NCBI GenBank assembly: GCA_964484105.1
Contig: CAZAEN010000007.1
Coordinates: 99,599-163,598 of the forward strand
Source: an uncultured Methylophilaceae bacterium
GTDB taxonomy: Bacteria > Pseudomonadota > Gammaproteobacteria > Burkholderiales > Methylophilaceae
DNA: 64,000 bases
Direction: 5' to 3'
Shown: in pieces, positions 43,029 to 62,873 of the stretch
How the letters are laid out: each line of letters begins with the position of its first letter
Position numbering within the stretch: position 1 is the first letter of the stretch
The notes under the pieces: model-generated
The model's input: only the letters and a program-made list of their open reading frames with translations
What the model was told of the DNA's origin: nothing
Databases searched by the model: none
Program-made: the position numbers and the translations under genes

Positions 43029-44993
43029 TTGAATCCTAAAAAATCATTTGCAGCGAATTTTCTCGACTTATTAAGCTCCATGCGCTTTGCCGTGAGCTTA
43101 CTGAGCGTCATCGGTATTGCCAGCATCATTGGCACGGTGCTCAAACAAAACGAGCCGTATGCCAATTACATCATTAAATTTGGCCAATTTTGGTTTGGTT
43201 TTTTTGAAATGATTGGGCTTTACGATGTGTATCACAGCAGCTGGTTTTTGCTGATTTTGTTGTTTTTGGTGATTTCAACCAGCTTGTGCGTGTACCGCAA
43301 TAGTCCTGTGATGATCAAAGAATGGCGCGCATTTAAAGAGCATGCGTCAGAAAAATCATTACGTTTGTTTAGTCACCACGCAGAATTTACATCGAACGCT
43401 GACGCGCAAGTCAGGAAAGAAAAACTACTGCAATTTTTAAACGAGCGTAAATTTCAATACAAAATCATTCCGCAGATTGATGGCGCAGAGTTGATTGCTG
43501 CCAAGCACGGTACGCATCAACGCTTGGGCTATATTTTGACGCATACGGCGATTGTGATTATTTGTTTTGGCGGCCTGTTAGATGGTAATTTAATTTTCAA
43601 AGTCCAAGAATTGTTGGCCTACAAAAAAGTGGAAACCTTGGATATTCCAGCTTCAAAAGTGCCTGAAATCAGCCGCTTAAGTATTTTTAACCCGTCTTTT
43701 CGTGCCAACATGACGCTACCGGAAGGCACGAGCGATCATGTGGCATTTGTGCGCATTCGCGATGGGTATTTGGTACAGGAATTGCCGTTTACCGTCGGTT
43801 TAAAAGATTTTCGCATTGAGCATTATGCAACAGGTCAGCCAAAATCGTTTGAGAGCGATATTGTGATTCAAGACCCTGAATTAAAGGCGCCGATTGAAAA
43901 AACAATTACCGTCAATCACCCGTTTATTTACAAGGGTGTTGCTATTTATCAATCGGATTTTCAGGACGGCGGAACAAAACTCCATTTTAATTTGTGGAAC
44001 TTTTTTAGCAAAAACGTGGCATCGCAAGCTGTTGATGGTGTGGTTTTCCAAAAGGGTGCGCTGGGCGAAGGCGACCAAGCGCTGAAAGTCGAGTTTGACG
44101 GCTTTAGAAAATTCAACATTATTAATTTGTCGCCAGATGGCAAAGGCAAACCACAAAACGTTGGGCCGAATGTCACTTATAAGCTGCGCAACACGCAAGG
44201 CCAAGCGGTGGAATATGTAACTTATATGAATCCTTTGCGTATTGAAGGTCGTCATTATTTTATTTCTGGGATGCGCGAAACGGTGCAAGAAGATTTCCGC
44301 TATTTGCGCATTCCGGTAGATGCTGACGCTGGCATGGAAGGTTTTATGGCTTTTCGTGCTGTGATGTTGGATGAAAATCAATATGAAGAAATTGCACACC
44401 GTTTGGCGAAATATGCGATTGAACAAAATAGCGATGTAAACGTGCAACAAGCGTTCATTTTGAGCGTCAAACAGTTGATGAAAAATTTTGCTACGGGCGG
44501 TTACACCAAAGTGGCGGAAATCATAGAGCAAAAAGTGCCAGAAAATCAGCGAGAAATGGCCGCGCAAACCTATATTAAAATGATTAATCTAGCGGCATTT
44601 GAAGCTTATAATCTGGGACAGGAAAAAAACAAACAGACGAGACTAGAAAAAAACACAGAAAGCGAAATATTGATTAAAGAAAATTTGAATGCGTTTAGCG
44701 ATATGTTTTTTTACGGCTCGCCCTATTATTTTCAGCTGAAAAATTATGACTTAAAAGAGGCGAGTGGGTTACAGTTAACACGTTCTCCCGGGCAAAAATG
44801 GGTGTATTTAGGTTCGTGTTTGTTGGTGTTAGGCATTTTTGCCATGATGTATATTCGCGAAAGACGGTTGTGGTTGTTAGTTAAGTCCACGCAAAATACG
44901 GTATTGTTTGCAATGTCGTCTAACCGCAAAGATTTAGACTTCGATAAAGAGTTTCAGCAATATCGTGAAGCTTTGCACAGCACATTGCAGTAA
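43029..44993 (+). CDS. resB: Cytochrome c biogenesis protein ResB/Ccs1 (system II)
   Basis: LSSMRFAVSLL, GYILTH, ITVNHP, SGLQLTRSPG. Confidence 0.92.
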   Translation: MNPKKSFAANFLDLLSSMRFAVSLLSVIGIASIIGTVLKQNEPYANYIIKFGQFWFGFFEMIGLYDVYHSSWFLLILLFLVISTSLCVYRNSPVMIKEWRAFKEHASEKSLRLFSHHAEFTSNADAQVRKEKLLQFLNERKFQYKIIPQIDGAELIAAKHGTHQRLGYILTHTAIVIICFGGLLDGNLIFKVQELLAYKKVETLDIPASKVPEISRLSIFNPSFRANMTLPEGTSDHVAFVRIRDGYLVQELPFTVGLKDFRIEHYATGQPKSFESDIVIQDPELKAPIEKTITVNHPFIYKGVAIYQSDFQDGGTKLHFNLWNFFSKNVASQAVDGVVFQKGALGEGDQALKVEFDGFRKFNIINLSPDGKGKPQNVGPNVTYKLRNTQGQAVEYVTYMNPLRIEGRHYFISGMRETVQEDFRYLRIPVDADAGMEGFMAFRAVMLDENQYEEIAHRLAKYAIEQNSDVNVQQAFILSVKQLMKNFATGGYTKVAEIIEQKVPENQREMAAQTYIKMINLAAFEAYNLGQEKNKQTRLEKNTESEILIKENLNAFSDMFFYGSPYYFQLKNYDLKEASGLQLTRSPGQKWVYLGSCLLVLGIFAMMYIRERRLWLLVKSTQNTVLFAMSSNRKDLDFDKEFQQYREALHSTLQ

Positions 44994-45005
44994 AGGAACA
45001 AGAGG

Positions 45006-46151
45006 ATGAAAGCAGATCATTATTTCGGCCAACCCCAAAATTTTTGGCAGCGTTTGACTTGGCAAGATGTTGGCTATGGCTTGATTTTATTAGTCGGCAG
45101 CGTATTTGCCTTACAAAAATATAGCCAGTTTATGGATGCTTATGAGGTGTTCTTTTTATTTGGCGCGGTGGCATTGTTTAGTTATTTGGGCTGGCAGTGG
45201 TCTGCGCTGGCAAAGTTGGTACTAGGTGTTGGGGTGCTGAGCTTATTTGCCGTGAATTTATATCAGGGTGATTTAGCGCGTGGCGGGCAAAATTTCTTAC
45301 TCAAGTTTTTAATTGCCAGCCAATCTGCAGTGATGTGGATGAACGTGTTATTCGTGCTGGCGATGCTGGCCTACTGGCTCGCATTCTTTAAACATTCCGC
45401 ATTTGTTGGCAAAGTTGCGACTGCGCTGACTTGGGCAGCGACTTTGTTTGGCTTTGTTGGCCTCATGGTGCGTTGGTACGAGTCTTATTTAATTTCGCCA
45501 GATGTCGGCCATATTCCGGTCAGTAATTTGTACGAAGTATTTATTTTGTTTTGCTTGATTACGGCGTTACTTTATTTACATTACGAAAAAATATTTAAAA
45601 CCAAGCAGTTAGGTGGTTTTGTTCTATTGGTGATTAACGCTGCGGTGGGTTTTATCTTGTGGTACACCTTTGATCGCCAAGCGCATCAAATTCAACCTTT
45701 GGTGCCGGCCTTGCAAAGCTATTGGATGAAAATTCATGTGCCGGCAAATTTTGTAGGCTATGGCGCGTTTTCATTGGCAGCGATGGTGGCGAGTGCTTAC
45801 TTACTCGCGAATAAAGGTATTTTTGCAAAAAACTTACCTGCATTAGCGGTGTTAGACGATGTGATGTACAAATCCATCGCTGTTGGGTTTGCCTTTTTCA
45901 CCATCGCCACAATTTTGGGCGCGATGTGGGCGGCAGAAGCCTGGGGTGGTTACTGGAGTTGGGACCCTAAGGAAACTTGGGCGCTGATCGTATGGCTTAA
46001 TTATGCCGCTTGGTTGCATTTGCGCTTGGTGAAAGGTTTACGCGGGCCGATATTGGCATGGTGGGCGCTGATTGGTTTATTAGTCACAACGTTCGCCTTT
46101 TTGGGTGTGAATATGTTTTTAAGCGGTTTACATTCTTATGGTGAGTTGTAG
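45006..46151 (+). CDS. resC: Cytochrome c biogenesis protein ResC/CcsA (system II)
   Basis: WAAEAWGGYWSWDPKETW (WWD domain), LQSYWMKIHV, GLHSYG. Confidence 0.95.
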   Translation: MKADHYFGQPQNFWQRLTWQDVGYGLILLVGSVFALQKYSQFMDAYEVFFLFGAVALFSYLGWQWSALAKLVLGVGVLSLFAVNLYQGDLARGGQNFLLKFLIASQSAVMWMNVLFVLAMLAYWLAFFKHSAFVGKVATALTWAATLFGFVGLMVRWYESYLISPDVGHIPVSNLYEVFILFCLITALLYLHYEKIFKTKQLGGFVLLVINAAVGFILWYTFDRQAHQIQPLVPALQSYWMKIHVPANFVGYGAFSLAAMVASAYLLANKGIFAKNLPALAVLDDVMYKSIAVGFAFFTIATILGAMWAAEAWGGYWSWDPKETWALIVWLNYAAWLHLRLVKGLRGPILAWWALIGLLVTTFAFLGVNMFLSGLHSYGEL

Positions 46152-48942: not shown

Positions 48943-49746
48943 ATGCAGGCAAATATTGTTGAAATAAATCACCTTTCCTTCGGTTACCGAGGGCGCACTC
49001 TGCATAAAAATATCAATATGGCGTTCCCACGCGGGAAAGTGGTGGCGATTATGGGCGGCAGTGGCAGTGGTAAAACCACGTTGTTGCGGTTGATTGGTGG
49101 TCAAATTAAACCAACGGCGGGCAAAGTGTTGGTGGATGGTCACGTCGTGCACGAACAAGATCGTGATGGTGTTTATCAGCTGCGCCGCAAAATGGGCATG
49201 CTGTTCCAACATGGTGCTTTGTTTACTGATTTAAGCGTATTTGAAAATGTCGCTTTCCCTATTCGCGAACATACCAACTTGCCTGAGAGTATGATTCATG
49301 ATCTTGTTTTGATGAAACTGAATGCAGTGGGTTTACGTGGCGCGCATCAACTAATGCCAGCGGAACTCTCGGGTGGGATGGCCCGCCGTGTGGCTTTGGC
49401 TCGTGCAATTGCACTTGACCCAAGTATCATTATGTATGATGAACCATTTGCAGGGTTGGATCCAATTTCCATGGCGGTGATCTGTGATTTGATACGCAGC
49501 CTAAACGATGCATTAGGTGCTACCTCTATTGTTGTGACGCACGACGTAGAAGAAACCTTCCGCTTTGCTGATTATGTATATTTTGTCGCGGATGGCACAG
49601 TAGCTGCCGAAGGCACGCCAGATGATTTGCGTAAATCCGAACTGCCTTTTGTTCACCAGTTTATTTACGCTGAAAAAGACGGTCCGGTACCATTCCATTA
49701 TGCCGCGCCAGATTACCGTCAAGCTTTGTTAGGAAGGGCTCCATAG
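48943..49746 (+). CDS. mlaF: Mla phospholipid ABC transporter ATP-binding subunit
   Basis: GGSGSGKT, LSGGMARRVALARAIALDP, DEPFAGLDP. Confidence 0.92.
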   Translation: MQANIVEINHLSFGYRGRTLHKNINMAFPRGKVVAIMGGSGSGKTTLLRLIGGQIKPTAGKVLVDGHVVHEQDRDGVYQLRRKMGMLFQHGALFTDLSVFENVAFPIREHTNLPESMIHDLVLMKLNAVGLRGAHQLMPAELSGGMARRVALARAIALDPSIIMYDEPFAGLDPISMAVICDLIRSLNDALGATSIVVTHDVEETFRFADYVYFVADGTVAAEGTPDDLRKSELPFVHQFIYAEKDGPVPFHYAAPDYRQALLGRAP

Positions 49747-50543
49747 TGCCTACACGTATTTTTTCAAAAACAGTGCGTAACCTGCGCAAGATGGGTAGCT
49801 GGTTTGTGAACTCTATCTGGCTGCTTGGTACAGAGGCGCGCTTGTTTTGGTTGACGTTGATTTCCAGTGGCGAGTGCATTCGTCGACCAAGTTTGGTGAT
49901 TCGTCAGATGTACTACACTGGCGTGTTGTCGCTCATCATTATTTTAGTTTCTTCGTTTTTTGTTGGCATGGTGTTGGCGCTGCAAGGTTATAACACATTG
50001 CAGCGTTACGGTTCCTCTGAGGCGATTGGTGTTTTAGTGGCGTTGGCGCTGGTGCGAGAATTAGGGCCAGTGGTGACAGCATTATTATTTGCCGGTCGTG
50101 CTGGGACTGCGATTACTGCAGAAATCGGCTTAATGAAAACCACAGAGCAGCTTTCAGCAATGGAAATGATGGCAGTTAGCCCGATTTCTCGGATCATCGC
50201 GCCGCGTTTTTGGGCGGGTGTTTTTAGTATGCCGATTTTGGCTTGCTTGTTCTCAATGGTGGGTATTTTAGGCGGACATTTGCTGGCTGTGCCAGTGATT
50301 GGCGTGGATAGCGGCGCGTTTTGGTCGCAAATGCAGGCTAATGTGGATTGGCAAACCGATGTGATGAACGTTTTGGTAAAAAGCTTTGTGTTTGGCGTGG
50401 TCTGCACCATGATTGCCTTATTTGAAGGGTATGACGCGCCACCGACAGCTGAAGGTGTCAGCCATGCTACCACGAGAACCGTGGTCATATCGGCGCTTGC
50501 AATTTTGGGGATAGACTTTGTGCTAACCTCTTTCATGATTTAA
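49746..50543 (+). CDS. mlaE: Mla ABC transporter permease
   Basis: RELGPVVTALLFAGRAG, EQLSAMEMM, ATTRTVV. Confidence 0.93.
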   Translation: MPTRIFSKTVRNLRKMGSWFVNSIWLLGTEARLFWLTLISSGECIRRPSLVIRQMYYTGVLSLIIILVSSFFVGMVLALQGYNTLQRYGSSEAIGVLVALALVRELGPVVTALLFAGRAGTAITAEIGLMKTTEQLSAMEMMAVSPISRIIAPRFWAGVFSMPILACLFSMVGILGGHLLAVPVIGVDSGAFWSQMQANVDWQTDVMNVLVKSFVFGVVCTMIALFEGYDAPPTAEGVSHATTRTVVISALAILGIDFVLTSFMI

Positions 50544-50557
50544 CTGGGTGGATCACT

Positions 50558-51103
50558 ATGGAAAGAACAACAATTGATTTGTGGGTGGGAATTTTTGTCG
50601 CAATGGGCGTTGCCGCGTTACTTGGGCTGGCCATGAAAGTTGGCAATTTAACGACCAGTAATATAGGTGAAACTTACGTGGTGAACGCCAATTTTGAAAA
50701 TATCGGCGGTTTAAAACCGCGAGCACCAGTGAAAAGTGCTGGGGTTGTGGTGGGTCGCGTGGGTGAAATTGGCTTTGATGAGAAAACTTATCAGGCTGTT
50801 GTACGTCTTAATATTGATAAACGTTACAGCTTTCCTAAGGATACTTTTGCCAATATTTATACTGCGGGGTTGTTGGGTGAGCAATATGTTGGTTTGGAAG
50901 CGGGTGGCGATGAAGTGAATTTGAAAGAAGGAGACAAAATTGCTAAAACACAAGATGCCGTGGTGTTGGAGAAATTAATCAGCCAATTCTTATATAGCAA
51001 AGCTTCAGAAGATGAAGATGATAAACCATCAACAAAAGAAGAAGCTAAACCAGCTAAGTCCGACGCAGCGAAGTCAACTGAATTAGGTGATCCGCCGTTT
51101 TAG
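50558..51103 (+). CDS. mlaD: Outer membrane lipid asymmetry protein MlaD (MCE)
   Basis: TM, FENIGGLKPRAPVKSAGVVVGRV, TAGLLGEQYV; charged C-terminal tail. Confidence 0.93.
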   Translation: MERTTIDLWVGIFVAMGVAALLGLAMKVGNLTTSNIGETYVVNANFENIGGLKPRAPVKSAGVVVGRVGEIGFDEKTYQAVVRLNIDKRYSFPKDTFANIYTAGLLGEQYVGLEAGGDEVNLKEGDKIAKTQDAVVLEKLISQFLYSKASEDEDDKPSTKEEAKPAKSDAAKSTELGDPPF

Positions 51104-51162
51104 TGACGCGCGCTCGCAGGTTTGCAAACAATCAAACATTGATAACCTTTAAAGGGATCACA

Positions 51163-51783
51163 ATGAAGTCAATTTTTAAATTTTTATTAACCTTGTGTTT
51201 TTTGGCGACAGCTACATGGACTCAGTCTGTGTATGCAGAAGTTACGCCAGATGCTTTGGTGAAACAAACTGCGGAAGATGTCCTAAGTGTCATTAAAAAT
51301 GACAAAGAAATTCAAGCGGGCAATAAGCAAAAAATTTATGCGCTGGCAGAGGAAAAAATCTTGCCAAACTTTGATTTTGATCGTGTGTGCCGCTTAGTGT
51401 TGGGCAAAAACTGGAGAACGGCAACACCAGAACAGCAAGCAACCTTCCAAAAAGAGTTTCGTAGTTTGTTGCTACGCACTTATTCAACTGCGTTGGGCAA
51501 ATATCGTAATCAAACCATTAATTACAAGCCAACCGTAATGGATAACGAATCGGGCGTTGCTACGGTCAAAACTGAAATCATTCAACCAAGCGGCCCACCG
51601 ATTGCCGTAGACTACAGCCTTTCCAAAAATAGCGCAGATTGGAAAGTGTTTGATATTGTGATTGAGAGCGTGAGTCTAGTGACCAACTATCGTAGCCAAT
51701 TTGGCGCAGAAATTCGCCAAAACGGCATTGATAGCTTAAACAAAAAATTGGCCGACAAAAATCGCGCTGCAGGTGTTAATTAA
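51163..51783 (+). CDS. mlaC: Periplasmic phospholipid-binding protein MlaC
   Basis: LVLGKNWR, LLLRTY, WKVFDIVIESVSLVTNYRSQF; start taken at ATG 51163. Confidence 0.92.
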   Translation: MKSIFKFLLTLCFLATATWTQSVYAEVTPDALVKQTAEDVLSVIKNDKEIQAGNKQKIYALAEEKILPNFDFDRVCRLVLGKNWRTATPEQQATFQKEFRSLLLRTYSTALGKYRNQTINYKPTVMDNESGVATVKTEIIQPSGPPIAVDYSLSKNSADWKVFDIVIESVSLVTNYRSQFGAEIRQNGIDSLNKKLADKNRAAGVN

Positions 51784-52086: not shown

Positions 52087-52170
52087 ATACGTCATCTCAT
52101 ATATCTAATTTATATTTGAGGCGGTCGAGAAATTACCGCCTTGTGTGCCGATCATCGGACAATTTCATTC

Positions 52171-53070
52171 ATGCTTCCAGCTATTCAAATTCGTGACATT
52201 CACAAAAGCTTTGGTCAATTACACGCCTTAAAAGGCGTGAATTTGACCATTGAGCAAGGCGAGTTTTTTGCTTTGCTTGGGCCGAATGGCGCAGGAAAGT
52301 CGACGTTGATTAATATTCTCGCTGGACTTACGCGACCTAGTAGCGGGCGTATTGAAGTGCTCGGACATGATGTGGTGACGCAGTACCAGAACGCGCGACG
52401 ATTATTGGGGATCGTGCCGCAGGAACTGGTGTTTGATCCTTTTTTTAATGTGCGTGAAATGTTGCGTTTTCAGGCTGGGTATTTTGGTCGTGGGCGCGAA
52501 AATGATGCATGGATTGACGAAATCTTAGAAGGCCTAGGGCTTGCCGATAAAGCGCATACCAATATGCGTCGACTCTCAGGTGGCATGAAGCGGCGCGCGC
52601 TCATCGCGCAAGCGCTTGCACATAAACCGCCGGTGATCGTGCTGGACGAGCCAACGGCCGGTGTGGATGTTGAGTTGCGCCAACTGATGTGGAATTTTAT
52701 TCGCAAGTTGAATCAAGATGGTCATACGATCATTCTCACCACGCACTATCTAGAAGAGGCTGAAATGTTATGCAATCGCGTGGCGATGTTGAAACAAGGT
52801 GAAATTATTGCCTTGGATAGCACGGCGAATTTGTTGAGCCGCTTTGCCGGTAAAATGCTGCAGTTGAAGTTGGGTAATGTCAATTTGCCTGATTCTTTGC
52901 GTGCAATGCTTAAAAGCCAAGATCAAGGCGTGTTCACTTTTCACTTGAAAGACTTGTTACAAATTGAAATGATATTGTCCACGTTGCGCACACAGCAAAT
53001 TCATGTGGAAGATATGCAGGTCAACGAGGCAGATTTGGAAGATGTATTTTTAACGCTGGTTGGTCAATAA
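52171..53070 (+). CDS. ABC transporter ATP-binding protein (YadG-like)
   Basis: GPNGAGKST, LSGGMKRR, LDEPTAGVD, TTHYLEEA. Confidence 0.9.
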   Translation: MLPAIQIRDIHKSFGQLHALKGVNLTIEQGEFFALLGPNGAGKSTLINILAGLTRPSSGRIEVLGHDVVTQYQNARRLLGIVPQELVFDPFFNVREMLRFQAGYFGRGRENDAWIDEILEGLGLADKAHTNMRRLSGGMKRRALIAQALAHKPPVIVLDEPTAGVDVELRQLMWNFIRKLNQDGHTIILTTHYLEEAEMLCNRVAMLKQGEIIALDSTANLLSRFAGKMLQLKLGNVNLPDSLRAMLKSQDQGVFTFHLKDLLQIEMILSTLRTQQIHVEDMQVNEADLEDVFLTLVGQ

Positions 53071-53072
53071 AA

Positions 53073-53864
53073 ATGCTGAATATTTTTCAATTGTTCAAAC
53101 AGCCCTCTTTTATTGGTATGTGGACGCTACTCAAAAAAGAGTTGCTGCGTTTTTGGCGCGTAGCATTTCAAACGATTGCCGCACCTGTTATCACGGCTTT
53201 GCTTTATTTAATGATTTTTTCGCACGTGTTGTCATCACATGTGAAAGTGTATGAGCACGTTGAATACACTGCCTTTTTGATTCCCGGCCTGATGATGATG
53301 TCAATGTTGCAAAATGCGTTTGCCAACAGTTCATCCAGCTTAATTCAATCCAAAGTCATGGGTAGTATTGTGTTTATTCTGCTGACGCCAATCACGCATT
53401 CGCAGTTTTTTATCGCGTTCCTGATCGCTGCGATTGTCCGCGGTTTGGTGGTTGGCGCTTGCATCTACTTGGTTGCCCTCTGGTTTGTCGATATTCCGTT
53501 AGCAAATCCTTGGTGGATAATTGCTTTTGCCTTATTGGGTAGCGCGTTGCTCGGGACGTTGGGCATTATTGCGGGTATTTGGGCAGAAAAATTTGATCAA
53601 ATGGCCGCCTTTCAAAATTTTATTATCATGCCTTTATCTTTTTTATCGGGCGTGTTTTATTCGATTCATTCATTGCCAGCATTTTGGCAAAAAGTGTCGC
53701 ATTTGAACCCGTTTTTTTACATGATTGATGGTTTTCGTTACGGTTTTTTTGGGCAAGGGGATATTTCGCCTTGGATAAGTTTGTTGATCGTCACGGCGGC
53801 GTTCGTGCTGTTAGCATGGCTGACCCTAAAAATGTTAAAATCCGGCTATAAATTAAGAGCATAG
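53073..53864 (+). CDS. ABC-2 type permease (YadH-like)
   Basis: KELLRFWRV, AFANSSSS, FLSGVFYSI, NPFFYMIDGFRY. Confidence 0.9.
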   Translation: MLNIFQLFKQPSFIGMWTLLKKELLRFWRVAFQTIAAPVITALLYLMIFSHVLSSHVKVYEHVEYTAFLIPGLMMMSMLQNAFANSSSSLIQSKVMGSIVFILLTPITHSQFFIAFLIAAIVRGLVVGACIYLVALWFVDIPLANPWWIIAFALLGSALLGTLGIIAGIWAEKFDQMAAFQNFIIMPLSFLSGVFYSIHSLPAFWQKVSHLNPFFYMIDGFRYGFFGQGDISPWISLLIVTAAFVLLAWLTLKMLKSGYKLRA

Positions 53865-55776: not shown

Positions 55777-56418
55777 ATGATTACCATCGCACTTTCGAAG
55801 GGCAGGATTTTTGAAGAAACGTTGCCTTTGCTCAAAGCCGCAGGCATTGAACCAGCGGAAAATCCTGAAAGTTCGCGCAAGCTAATTATTGGTACCAATC
55901 GTGAGGACGTACGTCTGATTATCGTGCGTGCAACTGATGTGCCAACTTACGTGCAATATGGCGCGGCGGATTTAGGTATTGCTGGTAAAGACGTGTTGGA
56001 CGAACATGGTGGCGAAGGCTTGTACCAGCCGATTGACCTCAATATTGCCAAATGCAAAATGATGGTGGCGGTGCGGGAAGATTTTGATTATTTTGCGTCT
56101 ATTCGTAGCGGTGCGCGCTTGAAGGTCGTCACTAAATATGTAAAAACTGCGCGTGAACATTTTGCTGCAAAAGGCATGCATGTCGATTTAATCAAGTTAT
56201 ATGGCTCGATGGAGTTGGGGCCGTTGGTTGGTCTTGCCGATGTCATTGTGGATTTGGTCAGCACTGGCGGCACTTTGCGCGCCAATAATTTAAAAGCAGT
56301 GGAAGAAGTGGGTGATGTTAGCTCGCGACTTATTGTGAACCAAGCTTCTTACAAATTAAATCGCGCTCAATTGCAGCCGATCATGAACGCTTTTGCGGGT
56401 GCTGTGACTAAAGAATAA
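55777..56418 (+). CDS. hisG: ATP phosphoribosyltransferase, short form
   Basis: [36 protein letters not shown]; 213 aa. Confidence 0.95.
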
Positions 56419-56420
56419 TT

Positions 56421-57743
56421 GTGTGTATGGATACAACCATGTCTGTCAATATCAGAAAACTTTCAACCCTCGATACTGGTTTTAATGACCAATTGCATGC
56501 CTTGCTCGCGTTTGAAACCGCGCAAGACGACAATATCGATACTGTTGTGGCGAATATTTTAAAAGATGTTAAAACACGTGGCGATGCCGCAGTGTTGGAA
56601 TATACCAATCGTTTTGATAAAACGGGTGCAATGTCAATTGCCGCGTTGGAAATCAGTCAGCAAGAACTTGCAGCGGCATTAAATGGATTGCCAGTTGCAC
56701 AACGTGAAGCACTTGAAGCTGCTGCAGCACGCGTCAAAAATTACCATGAAAAACAATTGATGCAATCTTGGCAATACACAGAGGCCGATGGTACGGTGCT
56801 GGGCCAACAAGTCACTTCGTTAGACCGCGTTGGTTTATACGTGCCAGGCGGTAAAGCGGCTTACCCTTCATCTGTGTTGATGAATGCAATTCCGGCAAAA
56901 GTGGCCGGTGTGCGAGAACTCATCATGGTGGTGCCAACGCCAAACGGCGAAAAAAATCCCTTGGTATTAGCTGCCTCAGCCGTATGTGGCGTTGACCGTG
57001 TATTTTGCATTGGTGGCGCACAAGCTGTTGGTGCCTTGGCATACGGCACTGCGACGATTCCGCAAGTCGATAAAATTGTTGGCCCCGGAAATGCCTATGT
57101 GGCAGCAGCCAAGCGTCGTGTGTTCGGGGTGGTCGGCATTGATATGGTGGCGGGCCCTTCAGAAATTTTGGTAATTTGTGACGGGCAAACTAACCCTGAT
57201 TGGGTGGCGATGGATTTATTCAGCCAAGCGGAACATGACGAATTAGCGCAAGCAATTTTGCTTTCGCCGGATGCGGAATTCTTGCGTGCGGTTGAAGAAA
57301 GCATTCAAAAGTTGCTTGTTGAAATGCCACGCAAAGAAATTATTTCTACCTCACTGACCAATCGCGGTGCGCTGGTTTTAGTAAAAGATTTGGATGAGGC
57401 TGCGGAAATTTGCAATTTTATTGCGCCGGAACATTTGGAGCTTTCGGTGGCTGATCCGGTCAGTTTATCTAAAAAAATCAAACACGCTGGCGCGATTTTT
57501 ATGGGGCGTGATACCTGCGAAGCTTTAGGCGATTACTGCGCTGGGCCGAATCACGTATTGCCAACTTCACGCACAGCGAGATTTTCCTCGCCACTAGGTG
57601 TGTACGATTTCCAAAAACGCTCAAGCCTCATTATGGTTTCCAGTGCAGGTGCGCAAACTTTAGGCAAGATCGCATCCACTCTTGCACATGGCGAAGGCCT
57701 GCAGGCGCATGCGAGAAGTGCTGAATTTAGGCTCAAAAAATAA
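56421..57743 (+). CDS. hisD: Histidinol dehydrogenase
   Basis: [40 protein letters not shown]. Confidence 0.97.
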
Positions 57744-57758
57744 AGTAGTAGGTTACCC

Positions 57759-58823
57759 ATGAGTAAATACTGGAGTGATGTTGTCCATACATTAACCCCC
57801 TATGTGCCGGGGGAGCAGCCGAAATTGGAGAATCTCGTTAAATTAAATACCAACGAGAATCCTTATGGTCCTAGCCCAAAAGTGTTGGAAGCGCTAAAAA
57901 ATGAAGCTGCTGACAGCTTAAGACTTTATCCTGATCCAAATTCCGATGCATTGAAAAAAACAATTGCACAAACTTTTGGCTTAACCTCAGCGCAAGTGTT
58001 CGTCGGCAATGGCTCTGACGAAGTGTTGGCGCATGTTTTCCATGCACTGTTAAAACATGATGAACCTTTGCTTTTCCCTGACATTACCTACAGCTTTTAT
58101 CCTGTCTATTGCACTCTGTATGGCATTGATTTTCAAACGATTCCCCTAGATGAAAATTTTTGCATTCGAGTGGAAGACTATTGCAAGCCAAACGGTGGCA
58201 TTATCTTTCCAAATCCTAACGCACCAACGGCTATTCCGATGTCACTTGTTGACATTGAAAAGTTATTGCAAAAAAATACAGCATCAGTCGTGGTCATTGA
58301 TGAGGCCTATGTTGATTTTGGTGCCGAGTCCGCGGTTGGTTTAATCAATACTTATCCTAATTTGTTGGTTACGCAAACGTTATCAAAATCCCGCTCGCTC
58401 GCTGGCTTGCGCGTAGGTTATGCGCTGGGCAATCCAGTACTGATTGAGGCGTTGACTCGTGTGAAAGATAGCTTTAACTCTTATCCCATTGATCGTTTTG
58501 CGTCCGCGGGCGCAATAGCAGCGTTGCAAGACCAAGAATATTTTGAACGTACTCGCCTGCATGTGATTTCAACGCGGGAAAATTTGATCAAAGATATGGA
58601 AGCACTAGGGTTTGCAGTGTTGCCGTCTGGCGCAAATTTTGTATTTGCAAAACATAAAGAAATGGATGGTGTACTGCTGACGCAAAAGTTGAGAGAGCGT
58701 AGCATCATCGTTCGGCACTTTAAATCACCCGCCAGAATTGCCTCATATTTGCGAATTACGATTGGTACGGAAGCGCAATCCACGCTGTTGGTGAAAGCTT
58801 TAAAAGAAATCGTTGTGGAATAA
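57759..58823 (+). CDS. hisC: Histidinol-phosphate aminotransferase
   Basis: [39 protein letters not shown] (PLP Lys). Confidence 0.95.
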
Positions 58824-58896
58824 CTGAGTTTTAATACTAAAATTGCAAAAAACGACGAAATAATCATGCAATTTTGAATATTTTTTAACGAAAAAA

Positions 58897-58926
58897 TTGA
58901 ACTTATCTATTAAGTGCGGTTATCAT
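58897..58926 (+). promoter_or_regulatory. Candidate sigma70 promoter of hxlA
   Basis: TTGAAC, 18 nt, TATCAT in an AT-rich intergenic region; GGAGG RBS at 58996-59000. Confidence 0.45.
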
Positions 58927-59007
58927 GTCGATTATGCGCAGATGTGCGCAATGGATTAATCAGACGTTAAAAATCAATATAATTTCTTTTAAGTTGGAGG
59001 ATGTATC

Positions 59008-59895
59008 GTGGCACAAACCCAAATGGCTTTAGACTCACTTGATTTCGACGGAACCGTCGCTTTGGCAACTAAAGTTGCTTCACATGTTGATATCTTAGAA
59101 ATCGGTACTCCTTGTATCAAACACAACGGTATCAAATTGTTAGAAACTTTACGTGCTAAATTCCCTAACAACAAAATCTTAGTTGACTTAAAAACAATGG
59201 ACGCTGGCTACTACGAAGCAGAGCCATTTTACAAAGCTGGTGCTGATATTTGCACAGTATTAGGTACTGCAGATATTGGTACGATTAAAGGTGTAATTGA
59301 TGTTGCTAACAAATACGGCAAAATGGCTCAAGTTGACTTAATCAACGTTACAGACAAAAAAGCCCGTACATTAGAAGTGGCTAAATTGGGCGCACACATC
59401 ATCGGTGTGCACACTGGTTTAGATCAACAAGCAGCTGGTCAAACACCGTTTGTTGATTTGGCAATGGTTACTGGTTTAAATACTGGCGCTAAAGTTTCTG
59501 TAGCAGGCGGTGTTAAAGCTGCAACAGTACGTCAAGTAGTAGATGCGGGTGCTGACATTGTTGTTGCGGGTGCTGCTATTTATGGCGCAGCTGACCCAGC
59601 AGCGGCAGCGAAAGAAATTACATCATTGGCGCATACAGCACCAGCAGCAGCCGGTGGTAATAAATGGTTGCCATGGGTATTGGCAATTGTCGCAGCAGTG
59701 ATTGTGATCTCTTTGTTTGGCGGTAAAAAAGAAGAGGCACCTGTGGAAGCTGCACCTGCGGCAGTAGAAGAAGCCGCTCCTGCGGCTGAAGCTGCGCCAG
59801 CAGCTGAGGCAGCTCCTGCTGAAGAGGCGGCAGCAGAAGCTGCTGGTGATTTGGTTGAGGCTGCAAAAGAAGCTGCTCCAACGCCAGCGCAGTAG
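59008..59895 (+). CDS. hxlA: 3-hexulose-6-phosphate synthase with C-terminal TM anchor and Ala/Glu/Pro tail
   Basis: QMALD, ILEIGTP, LVDLKTMDAG, GVHTGLDQQ, SVAGG, VAGAAI HPS motifs in residues 1-about 208; hydrophobic W220-F237; EAAPAA-repeat tail. Confidence 0.93.
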   Translation: MAQTQMALDSLDFDGTVALATKVASHVDILEIGTPCIKHNGIKLLETLRAKFPNNKILVDLKTMDAGYYEAEPFYKAGADICTVLGTADIGTIKGVIDVANKYGKMAQVDLINVTDKKARTLEVAKLGAHIIGVHTGLDQQAAGQTPFVDLAMVTGLNTGAKVSVAGGVKAATVRQVVDAGADIVVAGAAIYGAADPAAAAKEITSLAHTAPAAAGGNKWLPWVLAIVAAVIVISLFGGKKEEAPVEAAPAAVEEAAPAAEAAPAAEAAPAEEAAAEAAGDLVEAAKEAAPTPAQ

Positions 59896-59912
59896 TAATA
59901 TTCGTTGTTTTT

Positions 59913-59942
59913 AAAAAAGCCGGCACTAAGTCGGCTTTTTTT
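59913..59942 (+). terminator. Rho-independent terminator after hxlA
   Basis: aaaaaagccggc-actaa-gtcggcttttttt. Confidence 0.85.
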
Positions 59943-60016
59943 ATTGCTTTTTTGCTTATCATCAGTAGTTTGGGTTAGAATGCGCTGGTTATTGACATAC
60001 ATCTAAATAAAATCCA

Positions 60017-60604
60017 ATGCGCTCAGCAGAAGTTACACGTAACACCCTAGAAACTCAAATTTCCGTGAATCTAAATTTAGATGGTACAGGTACATCACAG
60101 CTAAATACTGGCCTTGGTTTTTTGGATCATATGTTGGATCAAGTTGCACGTCATGGCATGATGGACATTGCTATTGAAGCAATAGGTGATTTACATATTG
60201 ACGGACATCATACTGTAGAAGATATTGGCATAACCTTAGGGCAGGCATTTACCAGAGCGATTGGGGATAAAAAGGGTATTTTTCGCTATGGGCATGCTTA
60301 TGTGCCGCTTGATGAAGCTTTATCACGCGTGGTACTAGATATTTCCGGTCGTCCTGGTTTGGAATTCTCGTGCGAATTTACGCGTGCGGTAATTGGCGAG
60401 TTTGATGTGGATTTGTTCCACGAATTCTTTCAAGGCTTTGTGAATCACGCCAATCTAACCCTGCACATTGATAACTTAAAAGGTCATAACTCGCACCATC
60501 AGGCCGAAACTATTTTTAAAGCTTTTGGGCGGGCACTTCGTATGGCAGTGTCGTATGACACTCGCATGACGGGCATCATGCCTTCAACAAAAGGAAGCCT
60601 GTAA
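60017..60604 (+). CDS. hisB: Imidazoleglycerol-phosphate dehydratase
   Basis: [29 protein letters not shown]. Confidence 0.97.
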
Positions 60605-60626
60605 GCGCATCCACATCCGATTTTTT

Positions 60627-61292
60627 GTGATGAGTAAAATTGATATAGCAGTCGTCGATTACGGCATGGGCAATTTGCGCTCAGTCTCTAAAGCACTAGA
60701 ACACGTTGCTGAAGGGCAGACTGTTGCCGTGACGAGCGACCCCTATGTGGTCGGTCAAGCAGCACGTGTTGTATTCCCCGGTCAAGGCGCTATGCCGGAC
60801 TGCATTCGAGAGCTTGATGCCAAGGGCTTGCGTGCCTCTGTCGTTGAGGCGGCGCACAGTAAACCTTTTCTCGGTATTTGCATAGGCTTGCAGATGTTGT
60901 TCGAACATTCTGAAGAGGGTGATGTGGCTGGTCTAGGTATTCTAAAAGGCAATGTCCGACGCTTTTCACCGGCAGAAATGCACGATAGTGAGGGCAATAA
61001 ACTTAAAGTGCCGCATATGGGATGGAATCAGGTGTATCAACACGCCTCAAGACCGCATCCTTTGTGGCAAGGTATTGAAGATGGTGCGCGTTTTTATTAT
61101 GTGCATAGCTACTATGTTGAGCCGCAAGACGCATCATTGGAATCTGGTTATAGCGAATATCCAAAGCACTTCACTAGCGCTATTGCCCATAACAACCTCT
61201 TTGCAGTACAGTTTCATCCTGAAAAAAGTGCTGATGCAGGCTTACAGCTATTGCGTAATTTTGTTCACTGGAATCCAGTAATCAAAAAATAA
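60627..61292 (+). CDS. hisH: Imidazole glycerol phosphate synthase, glutamine amidotransferase subunit
   Basis: DYGMGNL, GICIG, VPHMGWN, YYVHSY, QFHPEKS. Confidence 0.96.
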   Translation: MMSKIDIAVVDYGMGNLRSVSKALEHVAEGQTVAVTSDPYVVGQAARVVFPGQGAMPDCIRELDAKGLRASVVEAAHSKPFLGICIGLQMLFEHSEEGDVAGLGILKGNVRRFSPAEMHDSEGNKLKVPHMGWNQVYQHASRPHPLWQGIEDGARFYYVHSYYVEPQDASLESGYSEYPKHFTSAIAHNNLFAVQFHPEKSADAGLQLLRNFVHWNPVIKK

Positions 61293-61365
61293 TTTTATTG
61301 CATTCATTTTTTCATTAATCCGCCGTTTATTGGGTACGTCAATTTTCTATTTTTTTGTTTAGCGT

Positions 61366-62109
61366 ATGTTACTTATTCCTGCAATTGATTTAAAAGATGG
61401 CCATTGTGTTAGGCTAAAACAGGGGTTGATGGAAGAATCAACCGTATTTTCAGAGGACCCAGCCGCAATGGCGAAACATTGGGTTGATGCGGGCGGGCGA
61501 CGTCTGCATTTAGTAGATTTAAATGGTGCATTTGCTGGTAAACCGGTGAATGAAGCCGCTATTAAATCTATCGTGAAGACGGTGGGTGGCGATATTCCAA
61601 TTCAGCTTGGCGGCGGCATTCGTGATTTGGATACCATTGAGCGTTATTTGGATGACGGCATTAGCTACGTGATTATCGGTACAGCAGCCGTGAAAAATCC
61701 CGGTTTTTTGCACGAGGCTTGTTACGCGTTTCCAGGGCAGATTATCGTTGGGCTGGATGCAAAAGATGGCAAAGTGGCAGTAGATGGTTGGTCAAAATTA
61801 ACTGGACACGACGTGATAGATCTTGCCAAAAAATTTGAAGATTATGGTGTGAACTCCATTGTTTATACGGATATTGGTCGTGATGGCATGCTTAGTGGTG
61901 TGAATATTGAGGCAACTGTGGCATTGGCACAGGCGCTGACCATTCCGGTCATTGCCTCTGGAGGCCTCACGAATTTGGAGGACGTACGAAAACTTTGTGC
62001 GGTGGAATCCGAGGGTGTGATCGGCGCGATTACTGGCCGTGCAATTTATGAGGGCACGTTGGATTTTGCTGATGCGCAAGATTTGGCCGATGAGTTAAGC
62101 CAAGCATGA
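61366..62109 (+). CDS. hisA: ProFAR isomerase
   Basis: [36 protein letters not shown]. Confidence 0.96.
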
Positions 62110-62873
62110 GTTTAGCGAAAAGGATTATCCCTTGTTTAGATGTGACCAATGGACGTGTGGTCAAAGGGGTGAATTTTCTGGAGTTACGTGATGCCGGTGA
62201 TCCGGTGGAAATTGCCAAACGCTACGATGATCAAGGCGCGGATGAGCTGACTTTTTTGGATATCACCGCGAGTTCAGATGATCGTGACTTGATTTTGCAC
62301 ATTATTGAAGAAGTTGCATCACAAGTCTTTATTCCATTAACAGTGGGTGGCGGTGTGCGGCAAGTAGAGGATGTTAGGCGTTTATTGAATGCGGGCGCGG
62401 ATAAAGTTAGCATTAATACAACAGCAGTCCTTAATCCACAAATGGTGGCAGATGCAGCAGCAAGATTTGGCTCGCAGTGTATTGTGGTCGCTATTGATGC
62501 GAAAAAAGTAGAGAATCAGCCATTTGAATGGGAAGTGTTTACCCATGGCGGACGTAAACCTACCGGATTAGACGCAGTGGTGTGGGCAAAGAAAATGGTG
62601 AGTCTAGGTGCAGGTGAGTTGCTGGTCACTAGTATGGATCGCGATGGCACAAAAATTGGCTTTAACAATCCCCTTAATCGCGCGATTTCCGATGCTGTTG
62701 AGGTGCCATTGATAGCCTCAGGTGGCGTTGGTAATTTACAGCACTTAGTAGATGGCATTAAAGAAGGTGGCGCAGATGCGGTGCTGGCGGCTAGTATTTT
62801 CCACTACGGCGAGTACACGGTAAAACAGGCCAAAGATTATATGGCGCAACACGGGATAGAAGTGCGACAATGA
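62106..62873 (+). CDS. hisF: Imidazole glycerol phosphate synthase cyclase subunit
   Basis: [37 protein letters not shown]. Confidence 0.97.

What the first reader, a model, noticed from the sequence alone, without database searches (positions are those of the whole stretch)
59008..59895. Membrane-anchored hexulose-6-phosphate synthase with an acidic EAAPAA tail
Canonical HPS is a soluble enzyme of about 210 aa. Here the intact domain continues in frame into a linker (HTAPAAAGGNK), a clear TM helix (WLPWVLAIVAAVIVISLF, 59665-59718) and a 56-aa tail (KKEEAPVEAAPAAVEEAAPAAEAAPAAEAAPAEEAAAEAAG...). The repeats use different synonymous codons, pointing to protein-level selection rather than slippage. 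With a cytoplasmic catalytic domain the tail would be periplasmic. In these bacteria methanol is oxidised to formaldehyde in the periplasm, and HPS fixes it in the cytoplasm. Inference: HPS is tethered at the inner membrane to capture incoming formaldehyde, and the extended tail may contact periplasmic dehydrogenases, forming a trans-membrane C1 metabolon.
Basis: partly seen in the sequence, partly recalled or inferred. Interest (0 to 1): 0.82.

Follow-up and report, generated by a model that had tools for sequence, protein, structure and literature searches.

The report
Membrane-anchored hexulose-phosphate synthase isozyme
One of this methanol-eating bacterium's two formaldehyde-fixing enzymes carries a membrane-spanning helix and an acidic floppy tail, and every relative's copy at the same genomic site also has a membrane-targeting end, so one enzyme pool is most likely held at the inner membrane.

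Summary
ORF 59008-59895 (+) encodes a 295-aa protein. It has an intact 3-hexulose-6-phosphate synthase (HPS) barrel (residues 1-209), a 10-residue linker, one hydrophobic helix (220-237/239) and a 56-residue A/P/E-rich tail with net charge -10.

It is not an artefact. The 120 best database homologues, all from Methylophilaceae, are 260-417 aa and carry the same extension.

In 80 genome loci the pattern is absolute:
- All 65 HPS copies inside the histidine operon have a C-terminal membrane device.
- 52 of them have a TM helix plus acidic tail. The other 13 have an 11-residue amphipathic end, GLFGWLK[GK]LFS, that resembles the E. coli MinD membrane-targeting sequence KGFLKRLFGG.
- All 15 copies outside the his operon are plain 209-211-aa proteins; the one whose neighbours I scanned sits between transaldolase and a SIS-domain (PHI-type) gene.

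Flank charges and one natural variant with an OmpA peptidoglycan-binding domain on the tail support an N-in/C-out topology.

So membrane tethering of one HPS isozyme is well supported. The proposed contact with periplasmic methanol dehydrogenase is untested, and the tail's variability argues against it. The tail evolves by in-frame tandem duplication, contrary to the "not slippage" claim.

I found no paper describing this. I rate it a new variant of a known enzyme, of moderate interest.

The parts
58897..58926 (+). Promoter-like site TTGAAC-N18-TATCAT for the HPS gene, which forms its own transcription unit inside the his cluster
   Evidence: Consensus scan. The TTGAA...CGGTTAT(G/C)ATG block is conserved upstream of the his-linked HPS in 7 of the 8 relatives aligned. 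This is a consensus match only; function is not shown.
58996..59001 (+). Ribosome-binding site GGAGGA, 6 nt before the GTG start
   Evidence: Read directly from the sequence. GGAGGA is nearly invariant in the alignment of relatives.
59008..59634 (+). 3-hexulose-6-phosphate synthase catalytic (beta/alpha)8 barrel, residues 1-209
   Evidence: TIGR03128 244.9 bits against cut-off 200. PF00215 4.8e-39. PDB 3ajx 8.6e-48, with the DILEIGTP, DLKTMDAG and VHTGLDQQ blocks aligned. AF2 block-mean pLDDT is mostly above 90.
59635..59664 (+). Flexible Ala/Gly linker TAPAAAGGNK (residues 210-219), ending in the conserved GG-x-K
   Evidence: AF2 pLDDT is about 64 for this block. G217 is invariant and G216 nearly invariant in 47 sequences.
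59665..59724 (+). Single transmembrane helix WLPWVLAIVAAVIVISLFGG (residues 220-239) with the conserved K-[WFYL]-LPW start
   Evidence: Kyte-Doolittle 19-residue maximum of 2.41. AF2 helix 220-237. P222 is invariant and L221 and W223 are at least 90% conserved. The uncharged span is 18-24 residues in 53 of 53 long forms.
59725..59892 (+). Acidic A/P/E-rich, intrinsically disordered tail (residues 240-295, net charge -10), predicted to be periplasmic
   Evidence: Composition. pLDDT below 50. Relatives' tails are 34-112 aa with net charge -4 to -26. Flank charge bias. OmpA-bearing variant L081.
59749..59819 (+). Degenerate in-frame tandem repeat inside the tail (36 nt x 2 at 77%; 18 nt x 3.3 at 61%)
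   Evidence: TRF. Among relatives, 44 of the 45 tails with a detected repeat have a period that is a multiple of three, and some repeats are 98-100% perfect.
59848..59871 (+). Conserved C-terminal peptide DLVEAAKE (residues 281-288), a variant of [DE]GLVGAAK[DE]A
   Evidence: The motif [LFM]V[GDE][AQK]AK[DEA] occurs in 37 of 120 homologues, starting 13-14 residues from the end in 33 of the 37. AF2 gives a short helix at 281-287, at low confidence.
59913..59941 (+). Intrinsic-terminator-like hairpin plus T-run between HPS and hisB
   Evidence: Scan: 12-pair stem with 5 GC pairs. Similar hairpins follow the gene in the relatives I read.
55777..58823 (+). Upstream his genes hisG, hisD and hisC (context that marks the anchored paralogue)
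   Evidence: Pfam HisG. hisD and hisC ORFs. The same order, with Pfam-labelled genes, appears in L082 and L083.
60017..62873 (+). Downstream his genes hisB, hisH, hisA and hisF
   Evidence: ORFs. Pfam His_biosynth for 62106-62870. Synteny in L082 and L083.

Best explanation
The gene encodes the his-operon paralogue of HPS as a bitopic inner-membrane protein. The catalytic barrel has no signal peptide and folds in the cytoplasm. A 10-residue flexible linker leads to one TM helix, and the 56-residue polyanionic disordered tail lies in the periplasm (N-in/C-out). The result is a pool of HPS held within a few nanometres of the cytoplasmic face of the inner membrane, while the second, plain 210-aa paralogue stays free in the cytosol. 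Membrane location is the selected trait. Across Methylophilaceae the his-linked copy reaches it by one of two devices: a MinD-like C-terminal amphipathic helix (Methylobacillus, Methylovorus, Ca. Methylopumilus) or the TM helix plus tail (Methylophilus, Methylotenera and this window). Both devices begin in register at GG-x-x-x-[WF]-L. The tail is best read as a translocation-competent periplasmic segment that fixes the topology and drifts in length by in-frame repeat gain and loss. Only its acidity and, in about a third of sequences, a terminal [DE]GLVGAAK[DE]A peptide are kept. The physiological purpose is inferred, not shown: a first-line formaldehyde sink at the membrane through which formaldehyde made by periplasmic dehydrogenases enters. 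Shown here: the domain identities, the conservation, the paralogue-specific pattern and the charge bias. Inferred: actual membrane insertion, the topology and the purpose. My confidence is about 0.8 for anchored N-in/C-out, about 0.4 for formaldehyde interception as the reason, and 0.68 overall.
For: The HPS domain is intact. The TM helix is strongly hydrophobic and conserved. All 120 top homologues are extended. In 80 genome loci, 52 long and 13 short forms are all his-linked, and all 15 plain 209-211-aa copies lack a his flank. One plain copy (L071) sits as tal-hps-SIS(PHI) with H4MPT-type genes, in the same MAG as the long form L001. This agrees with the two conserved HPS locations reported in PMC4109929. 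The short tails GLFGWLK[GK]LFS resemble the MinD MTS KGFLKRLFGG (PMC5471200), with hydrophobic moments of 0.35-0.50 against 0.45 for MinD. The short form occurs in Methylobacillus flagellatus KT in the same his context. The N-flank has net charge +1.7 and the C-flank -1.9, with the N-flank more positive in 52 of 53. Variant L081 carries OmpA (PF00691, 6.5e-18) after the tail, between hisC and hisB. The tail frame is kept: 44 of the 45 tails with a detected repeat have a period that is a multiple of 3, and Ala codon usage in the tail equals that of the barrel. Out-of-frame reading would give KLHLL-type sequence, as seen after the N-run in L051, and no complete locus shows that composition.
Against: There is no experimental localisation, and I had no dedicated TM or topology predictor. 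Hydropathy, charge bias and AF2 are indirect. One or two Lys residues also follow the helix, so the positive-inside signal taken alone is ambiguous. The OmpA variant is a single 2.2-kb contig from one sequencing run. Translocating a 34-112-aa C-terminal tail behind a folded 210-aa domain needs YidC or Sec, and that was not shown. Purpose: by my own order-of-magnitude estimate, formaldehyde crosses a 0.5-um cell in tens of microseconds, while capture by even 0.1-1 mM HPS takes about a millisecond or longer. Position alone should therefore give little kinetic gain unless there is direct channelling. From memory only, HPS purified from Methylophilus was soluble, and that could have been either paralogue.
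Confidence: 0.68

Rival explanations
1. Trans-membrane C1 metabolon. The periplasmic acidic tail docks methanol dehydrogenase (MxaFI or XoxF) and/or its cytochrome, so formaldehyde is produced directly above the anchored HPS and handed across the membrane.
For: The tail is always acidic, with net charge -4 to -26. A terminal peptide is conserved in 37 of 120 homologues, starting 13-14 residues from the end in 33 of them, which looks like a short linear motif. From memory, MDH-cytochrome cL docking is electrostatic, between lysines on MDH and carboxylates on the cytochrome. HPS is among the most highly expressed methylotrophy genes (PMC3728764).
Against: The tail is low-complexity, poorly conserved in sequence and 3-fold variable in length. 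It changes by recent slippage. It is absent in Methylobacillus, Methylovorus and Ca. Methylopumilus, which use only an amphipathic end. The terminal motif is missing in about two thirds of sequences. One variant puts a peptidoglycan-binding domain there instead. Formaldehyde crosses membranes freely, so no hand-over device is needed. No partner was tested.
Confidence: 0.1
2. The protein is anchored as described, but for a reason other than formaldehyde interception. Options include storing or regulating one enzyme pool, relieving cytosolic crowding by a very abundant enzyme, or assembling with another membrane-bound partner.
For: The evidence for membrane targeting is the same as for the best explanation. 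My reaction-diffusion estimate makes a pure proximity benefit doubtful. The gene has its own promoter-like site and terminator inside the his cluster, so it can be regulated separately from the tal-hps-phi copy.
Against: No candidate partner or regulator is visible in the window; the neighbours are his genes, murA, Mla and ABC transporter genes. There is no evidence for or against differential expression of the two copies in the papers I could read.
Confidence: 0.22
3. The extension is a functionless relic. It arose by read-through or fusion into low-complexity DNA or the 5' part of an OmpA-type gene, is tolerated, and the protein is effectively soluble or the extension is clipped off.
For: Stop codons are rare in all frames of GCN/GAA-rich DNA; the opposite strand has 114- and 140-aa ORFs across the tail. 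So an open frame alone is weak evidence. 5 of 120 homologues have an LxGC lipobox-like end of the helix, and 69 of 120 have an in-frame Met just before it, which looks like a former signal peptide. The motif GGxGK[FW]LPW plus a TM helix also precedes an OmpA domain in the unrelated protein P0271.
Against: The correct frame, the acidic composition, the LPW motif and the charge asymmetry are kept in every complete long form across 75-96% identity. No homologue stops right after the barrel at this locus. Sister lineages keep a different membrane-targeting end at the same position. Codon usage matches the barrel.
Confidence: 0.07
4. There are two products from one gene. Internal initiation at the Met before the helix yields a separate small signal-anchored acidic periplasmic protein, and the HPS fusion is incidental.
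For: 69 of 120 homologues have M-(G)-K immediately before xLPW, a signal-peptide-like start.
Against: The window protein has GGNKWLPW, with no in-frame ATG or GTG there. The Methylophilus-type sequences likewise have GGNKLLPW. No RBS-like element is evident, and the reading frame is continuous with HPS everywhere.
Confidence: 0.04

Closest known systems
Canonical soluble 3-hexulose-6-phosphate synthase (HxlA/RmpA; TIGR03128; PDB 3ajx, 3f4w)
   Same: The catalytic barrel is the same. The score exceeds the curated cut-off. The E31, D60-x-K62-x-x-D65 and H135 blocks align with solved HPS. The domain is about 84-93% identical to the plain 210-aa paralogues of relatives.
   Different: It carries 86 extra C-terminal residues: a linker, a TM helix and an acidic tail. 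It lies in the his operon rather than next to phi and tal.
Two-HPS arrangement of Methylophilaceae (his-cluster copy and H4MPT/HPI/transaldolase copy; PMC4109929)
   Same: The window gene is the his-cluster copy, and the synteny is identical to Methylobacillus and Methylotenera.
   Different: The paper treats the two copies as near-equivalent (about 90% identical) and does not mention a membrane anchor. Here the his-linked copy always has a membrane device and the other copy never does.
MinD/FtsA-type C-terminal amphipathic membrane-targeting sequence (E. coli MinD KGFLKRLFGG; PMC5471200)
   Same: The short his-linked HPS forms end in GLFGWLK[GK]LFS. The pattern G-aromatic-L-K-x-L-F, the length, the terminal position and the hydrophobic moment are all similar.
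   Different: The window protein uses a full TM helix instead. The short-form MTS is inferred from sequence only. MinD binding is ATP- and dimer-dependent, and nothing like that is known for HPS.
Bacterial tail-anchored inner-membrane proteins (ElaB/YqjD, DjlC, Flk; recalled from memory)
   Same: A cytoplasmic N-terminal domain without a signal peptide, with a single C-terminal TM helix.
   Different: True tail-anchored proteins have only a few residues after the helix. Here 56 residues (34-112 in relatives) must cross the membrane.
TM-linker-OmpA periplasmic anchoring modules (MotB-, Pal- and OmpA-family proteins)
   Same: The helix plus an Ala/Pro/Glu-rich linker resembles the spacer that carries OmpA-like domains to the peptidoglycan. 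The natural variant L081 has that domain. P0271 shares GGxGKFLPW plus a TM helix plus OmpA.
   Different: The window protein has no OmpA domain, and only one of the 120 listed long homologues does.
Known HPS fusion proteins (HPS-PHI HxlAB NF041755; Fae-HPS NF009833; HPS-RraA-like NF005442) and the membrane-bound HPS activity of Methylococcus capsulatus (Ferenci et al. 1974; membrane association recalled from memory)
   Same: HPS is often extended by fusion. A membrane-associated HPS activity has a precedent in a gammaproteobacterial methanotroph.
   Different: The fusion models match only the HPS part here and fall far below their cut-offs. The extension is not an enzyme domain. No M. capsulatus-type sequence in the 150 representatives has a C-terminal TM helix.

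Membership tests
3-hexulose-6-phosphate synthase (TIGR03128 RuMP_HxlA) | Whole-protein score above NCBIfam's curated cut-off | tested here: met
   244.9 bits against a cut-off of 200, covering residues 5-206 on profile positions 2-203 of 205.
3-hexulose-6-phosphate synthase (TIGR03128 RuMP_HxlA) | OMPDC-suprafamily active-site blocks (Glu after strand 1, D-x-K-x-x-D, His in VHTG); residue roles recalled from the KGPDC/HPS literature | tested here: met
   DILEIGTP, VDLKTMDAG and GVHTGLDQQ align with the solved HPS 3ajx. E31, D60, K62, D65 and H135 are invariant in 47 sequences.
3-hexulose-6-phosphate synthase (TIGR03128 RuMP_HxlA) | Catalyses formaldehyde + Ru5P -> hexulose-6-P | not testable with these tools
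   This needs an enzyme assay of the full-length and truncated protein.
Bitopic N-in/C-out inner-membrane protein | One hydrophobic span long enough to cross the bilayer | tested here: met
   20 uncharged residues with a KD19 of 2.41. AF2 helix at 220-237. The span is 18-24 residues in 53 of 53 relatives.
Bitopic N-in/C-out inner-membrane protein | Charge difference across the helix, with the more positive side in the cytoplasm | tested here: met
   N-flank net +1.7, C-flank net -1.9, with the N-flank more positive in 52 of 53. In the window the values are +1 and -2.
Bitopic N-in/C-out inner-membrane protein | Experimentally determined membrane insertion and topology | not testable with these tools
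   Only indirect support exists, from the OmpA-bearing variant L081.
Tail-anchored membrane proteins | TM helix within roughly 30 residues of the C-terminus, so insertion is post-translational | tested here: not met
   56 residues follow the helix here, and 34-112 in relatives.
MinD/FtsA-type amphipathic membrane-targeting sequence | Short C-terminal amphipathic helix, not a TM span | tested here: not met
   The window helix has muH 0.07 and <H> 0.86, which is TM-like. The short-form relatives do meet the feature, with muH 0.35-0.50 against 0.45 for MinD.
OmpA-family periplasmic peptidoglycan-binding proteins | OmpA_C-like domain (PF00691) | tested here: not met
   There is no Pfam hit beyond residue 206 in the window protein. 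The domain is present only in variant P0008/L081.
Bifunctional HPS fusions (HxlAB NF041755, Fae-HPS NF009833, HPS-RraA NF005442) | Full-length match above the curated cut-off, including the second domain | tested here: not met
   290 bits against cut-off 500, 117 against 274, and 169 against 593. The matches cover only the HPS part.

The most novel reading that the evidence does not exclude
Methylophilaceae keep a dedicated membrane-resident HPS isozyme. In the long form, its polyanionic periplasmic tail, through the conserved terminal [DE]GLVGAAK[DE]A peptide, engages a periplasmic partner such as a PQQ methanol dehydrogenase, its cytochrome or the cell wall. This would give a trans-envelope assembly that couples periplasmic formaldehyde production to cytoplasmic fixation.
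Probability: 0.12. Interest if true: 0.85.

Novelty: new variant of a known kind. Interest (0 to 1): 0.58.

Why it matters
HPS is the entry enzyme of the ribulose-monophosphate cycle and a standard part in synthetic methylotrophy. How Gram-negative methylotrophs cope with toxic formaldehyde made in the periplasm and consumed in the cytoplasm is still described only as free diffusion. A paralogue-specific, family-wide membrane-targeting rule, met by two different devices, would mean that formaldehyde fixation is spatially organised. It would also explain why these bacteria keep two nearly identical HPS genes.

The idea can be tested directly in cultured strains. Methylobacillus flagellatus KT has the short form, and Methylotenera versatilis and other Methylotenera strains have the long form. 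It also suggests a simple engineering handle: adding an MTS or TM tail to HPS in synthetic methylotrophs.

If localisation turns out to have no phenotype, the finding reduces to an annotation note. These proteins are currently labelled simply as 3-hexulose-6-phosphate synthase.

Tried and rejected
- **Second HPS copy in the window.** None was found: tblastn found only the gene itself.
- **NJ tree of the HPS barrel, to infer whether the short or long form is ancestral.** Soluble and short copies interleave by taxon, probably through gene conversion, so I did not use it.
- **hisC+hisB tree.** It places short forms in the Methylovorus and Methylopumilus groups and long forms in two large clades. 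L067 and L068 (short) are nested among long forms, and the tree is only midpoint-rooted, so the direction is unresolved.
- **Remnants of a tail downstream of short-form stop codons.** None were found; there are only terminators.
- **Survey of 150 representatives of all HPS at 50% clustering.** The C-terminal TM helix plus acid tail is confined to the Methylophilaceae cluster.
- **Origin of the extension from an OmpA-type gene.** The result is suggestive (shared GGxGK[FW]LPW-TM motif, 5 LxGC variants) but not demonstrated.
- **Rfam scan of 58600-60200.** All matches fall below the gathering scores.
- **Signal-peptidase cleavage after the helix.** I rejected this by eye: the -3/-1 positions are F/G or K/G, not small/small.
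- **Literature searches.** No paper mentions an anchored HPS. Two papers I wanted (the M. flagellatus genome paper and Ferenci 1974) are not held. The membrane-bound M. capsulatus HPS therefore rests on my memory.
Full report
**Observation**

The ORF at 59008-59895 on the + strand is real. It has a GTG start 6 nt after a GGAGGA ribosome-binding site and encodes 295 residues.

Residues 4-206 are a bona fide 3-hexulose-6-phosphate synthase:
- NCBIfam TIGR03128 scores 244.9 bits against a curated cut-off of 200.
- Pfam OMPdecase scores 4.8e-39.
- The solved HPS structures 3ajx and 3f4w match at 8.6e-48 and 5.2e-45, with the DILEIGTP, DLKTMDAG and VHTGLDQQ blocks aligned.

Models of the known bifunctional HPS fusions match only the HPS part and fall far below their cut-offs.

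- a linker, TAPAAAGGNK (residues 210-219);
- a hydrophobic stretch, WLPWVLAIVAAVIVISLFGG (220-239, nt 59665-59724), whose best 19-residue Kyte-Doolittle window scores 2.41;
- a 56-residue tail with 26 Ala, 12 Glu and 7 Pro and net charge -10.

AlphaFold2 was run with a 47-sequence alignment. It gives a confident barrel, a helix at 220-237 with pLDDT about 80-86, residues 241-291 below 50, and a short low-confidence helix at 281-287.

**It is neither an artefact nor a singleton**

The 120 best hits among about 5.8 billion proteins are 75-96% identical and come from Methylophilus, Methylotenera and other Methylophilaceae. They are 260-417 aa long. Every one continues past the barrel into GG-x-K-[WFYL]-LPW, a hydrophobic helix, one or two Lys, and an A/P/E/D-rich tail.

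In 49 complete long forms taken from genomes, the tail is 34-112 aa, its net charge is -4 to -26, and 59-91% of it is A+P+D+E.

Ala codon usage in the window's tail (GCT > GCA > GCG > GCC) equals that of the barrel.

The sequence after an N-run in L051 shows what the wrong frame looks like (KLHLLKLHLL). No complete locus has that composition.

**The key comparative result**

A scan of one genome per species returned 80 Methylophilaceae loci. I re-read each from DNA. They fall into three classes with no exception:
- 52 long forms (TM helix plus tail) and 13 short forms of 225-227 aa, all flanked by his genes (hisD-hisC-HPS-hisB);
- 15 plain proteins of 209-211 aa with no his flank.

One plain copy, L071, lies between transaldolase and a SIS-domain (PHI) gene beside H4MPT-type genes. 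It comes from the same MAG as the long form L001. This matches the published statement that all Methylophilaceae have two HPS genes, one in the his cluster and one in the H4MPT cluster with HPI and transaldolase (PMC4109929). That paper does not mention any anchor.

The short forms end in GGLFGWLK[GK]LFS:
- 45 of the 92 newly listed proteins from a second search end this way. They include Methylobacillus flagellatus KT and M. arboreus.
- The KT protein lies in the same murA-hisGDC-HPS-hisBHAFIE context.
- This 11-mer closely resembles the E. coli MinD membrane-targeting sequence KGFLKRLFGG (PMC5471200).
- Its helical hydrophobic moment is similar, 0.35-0.50 against 0.45.

The his-linked paralogue therefore always carries a C-terminal membrane device, either peripheral or transmembrane, and the other paralogue never does. 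The two devices start in register (GG-L-F-G-W-L against GG-M-G-K-W-L), which suggests one arose from the other.

**Topology**

The barrel has no signal peptide, and its substrate ribulose-5-phosphate is cytoplasmic.

Across 53 long forms, the 15 residues before the helix have net charge +1.7 with almost no acidic residues. The 15 residues after it have net charge -1.9. The N-side is the more positive in 52 of 53.

One natural variant, P0008 on contig L081, has the same barrel, helix and A/P/E linker, followed by an OmpA-family peptidoglycan-binding domain (PF00691, 6.5e-18). It still lies between hisC and hisB. Such a domain works only in the periplasm.

This supports N-in/C-out, with two caveats: the variant is a single 2.2-kb contig, and no topology experiment exists.

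Relatives of that OmpA module are lipoprotein or signal-anchored OmpA-family proteins. One of them, P0271, has GGIGKFLPW plus a TM helix before its OmpA domain. Five of 120 HPS tails have an LxGC lipobox-like end of the helix, and 69 of 120 have an in-frame Met just before it. An origin by capture of a signal-anchor and linker module is therefore plausible but not shown.

**The tail**

The window's DNA repeats are degenerate: 36 nt x 2 at 77%, and 18 nt x 3.3 at 61%.

Relatives have near-perfect in-frame tandem repeats: L006 has 15 nt x 5.9 at 98%, and L013 has 15 nt x 5.1 at 100%. Of the 45 relatives' tails in which TRF found a repeat, 44 have a period that is a multiple of three.

The tail therefore grows and shrinks by slippage or recombination, and selection acts on frame and acidic composition rather than on sequence.

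The one conserved element is a terminal peptide, [DE]GLVGAAK[DE]A (window: DLVEAAKE, residues 281-288). It is present in 37 of 120 homologues and starts 13-14 residues from the end in 33 of them. Its role is unknown.

**Gene context**

The gene sits in murA-hisG-hisD-hisC-HPS-hisB-hisH-hisA-hisF. It appears to be its own transcription unit. A TTGAAC-N18-TATCAT site (58897-58926) is conserved upstream in seven of the eight relatives aligned, and a 12-bp hairpin with a T-run (59913-59941) follows the stop codon.

No Rfam family reaches its threshold in the region.

The long opposite-strand ORFs across the tail are a by-product of GCN-rich low complexity.

**Mechanism and its limits**

I conclude that this is a bitopic inner-membrane HPS isozyme. 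Membrane location is the selected trait, and the tail is a periplasmic, disordered, polyanionic segment.

The purpose, a formaldehyde sink at the membrane through which periplasmically made formaldehyde enters, is an inference. By my own rough estimate, a small molecule crosses a cell of this size in tens of microseconds, while capture by 0.1-1 mM HPS takes about a millisecond or more. Placement alone may therefore not help, and a regulatory, crowding or assembly reason remains open.

In its favour are the constant acidity and the terminal motif. It has no direct support, and several things argue against it: the variability of the tail, its absence from the short-form genera, and the OmpA variant.

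**Novelty**

Among 150 representatives of all HPS clustered at 50% identity, a C-terminal TM helix plus acid tail occurs only in the Methylophilaceae cluster.

Seven literature searches found nothing on an anchored HPS. Sources annotate these proteins simply as 3-hexulose-6-phosphate synthase.

A membrane-bound HPS activity in Methylococcus capsulatus (Ferenci et al. 1974) is a precedent that I recall from memory but could not read.

I classify the finding as a new variant of a known enzyme, with interest 0.58.

Noticed in passing
L081:601-1854 (Logan SRR14329764 contig, 2193 bp): A 417-aa his-linked HPS carries, after the TM helix and A/P/E linker, a complete OmpA-family peptidoglycan-binding domain. 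It lies between hisC and hisB. It is the only such case among the 120 listed long homologues.
   Followed up: partly
P0132 (364 aa) and P0255 (231 aa): Two distant HPS representatives (49% and 37% identical) have N-terminal hydrophobic helices. P0132 has a CxxC zinc-ribbon-like start, a TM helix and a coiled coil before the barrel. P0255 has a strong N-terminal TM helix (KD 3.09). These may be independent membrane-anchored HPS variants in other lineages, or gene-calling artefacts.
   Followed up: no
L067:3679-4110 and L068:3679-4148: These two short-form loci are nested among long-form genomes in the hisC+hisB tree. They have an unusually long gap of 430-470 nt between HPS and hisB, with GC-rich palindromic segments and no ORF. 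It could be a repeat element or an RNA.
   Followed up: no
window 58930-58960 and the aligned region in relatives (alignment A2): Just downstream of the conserved -10-like box, the HPS leader has a conserved pair of TGCGCA / TGTGCA-type half-sites (window: TTATGCGCAGATGTGCGCAATGG). This could be an operator for a regulator of this HPS copy.
   Followed up: no
window 59580-60002 (-) and 59618-59962 (-): Opposite-strand ORFs of 140 and 114 aa span the tail-coding region. They are composition artefacts of the GCN/GAA-rich repeat and have no support as genes.
   Followed up: partly
P0123 (246 aa) and P0121 (263 aa): These representatives have the first 120-185 residues of a Methylophilaceae HPS joined to unrelated sequence, in one case transaldolase-like. 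They are probably frameshifted or chimeric metagenome gene calls, not new fusions.
   Followed up: no
window 43029-46151, 48943-51783 and 52141-53864: The neighbourhood upstream of the his cluster is ordinary housekeeping: ResB/CcsA-type cytochrome c biogenesis genes, an MlaFEDC-type lipid transport system and an ABC-2 transporter. No methanol dehydrogenase or other C1 genes turned up among the larger ORFs I scanned; about 20 of 57 ORFs of at least 150 aa were scanned.
   Followed up: partly
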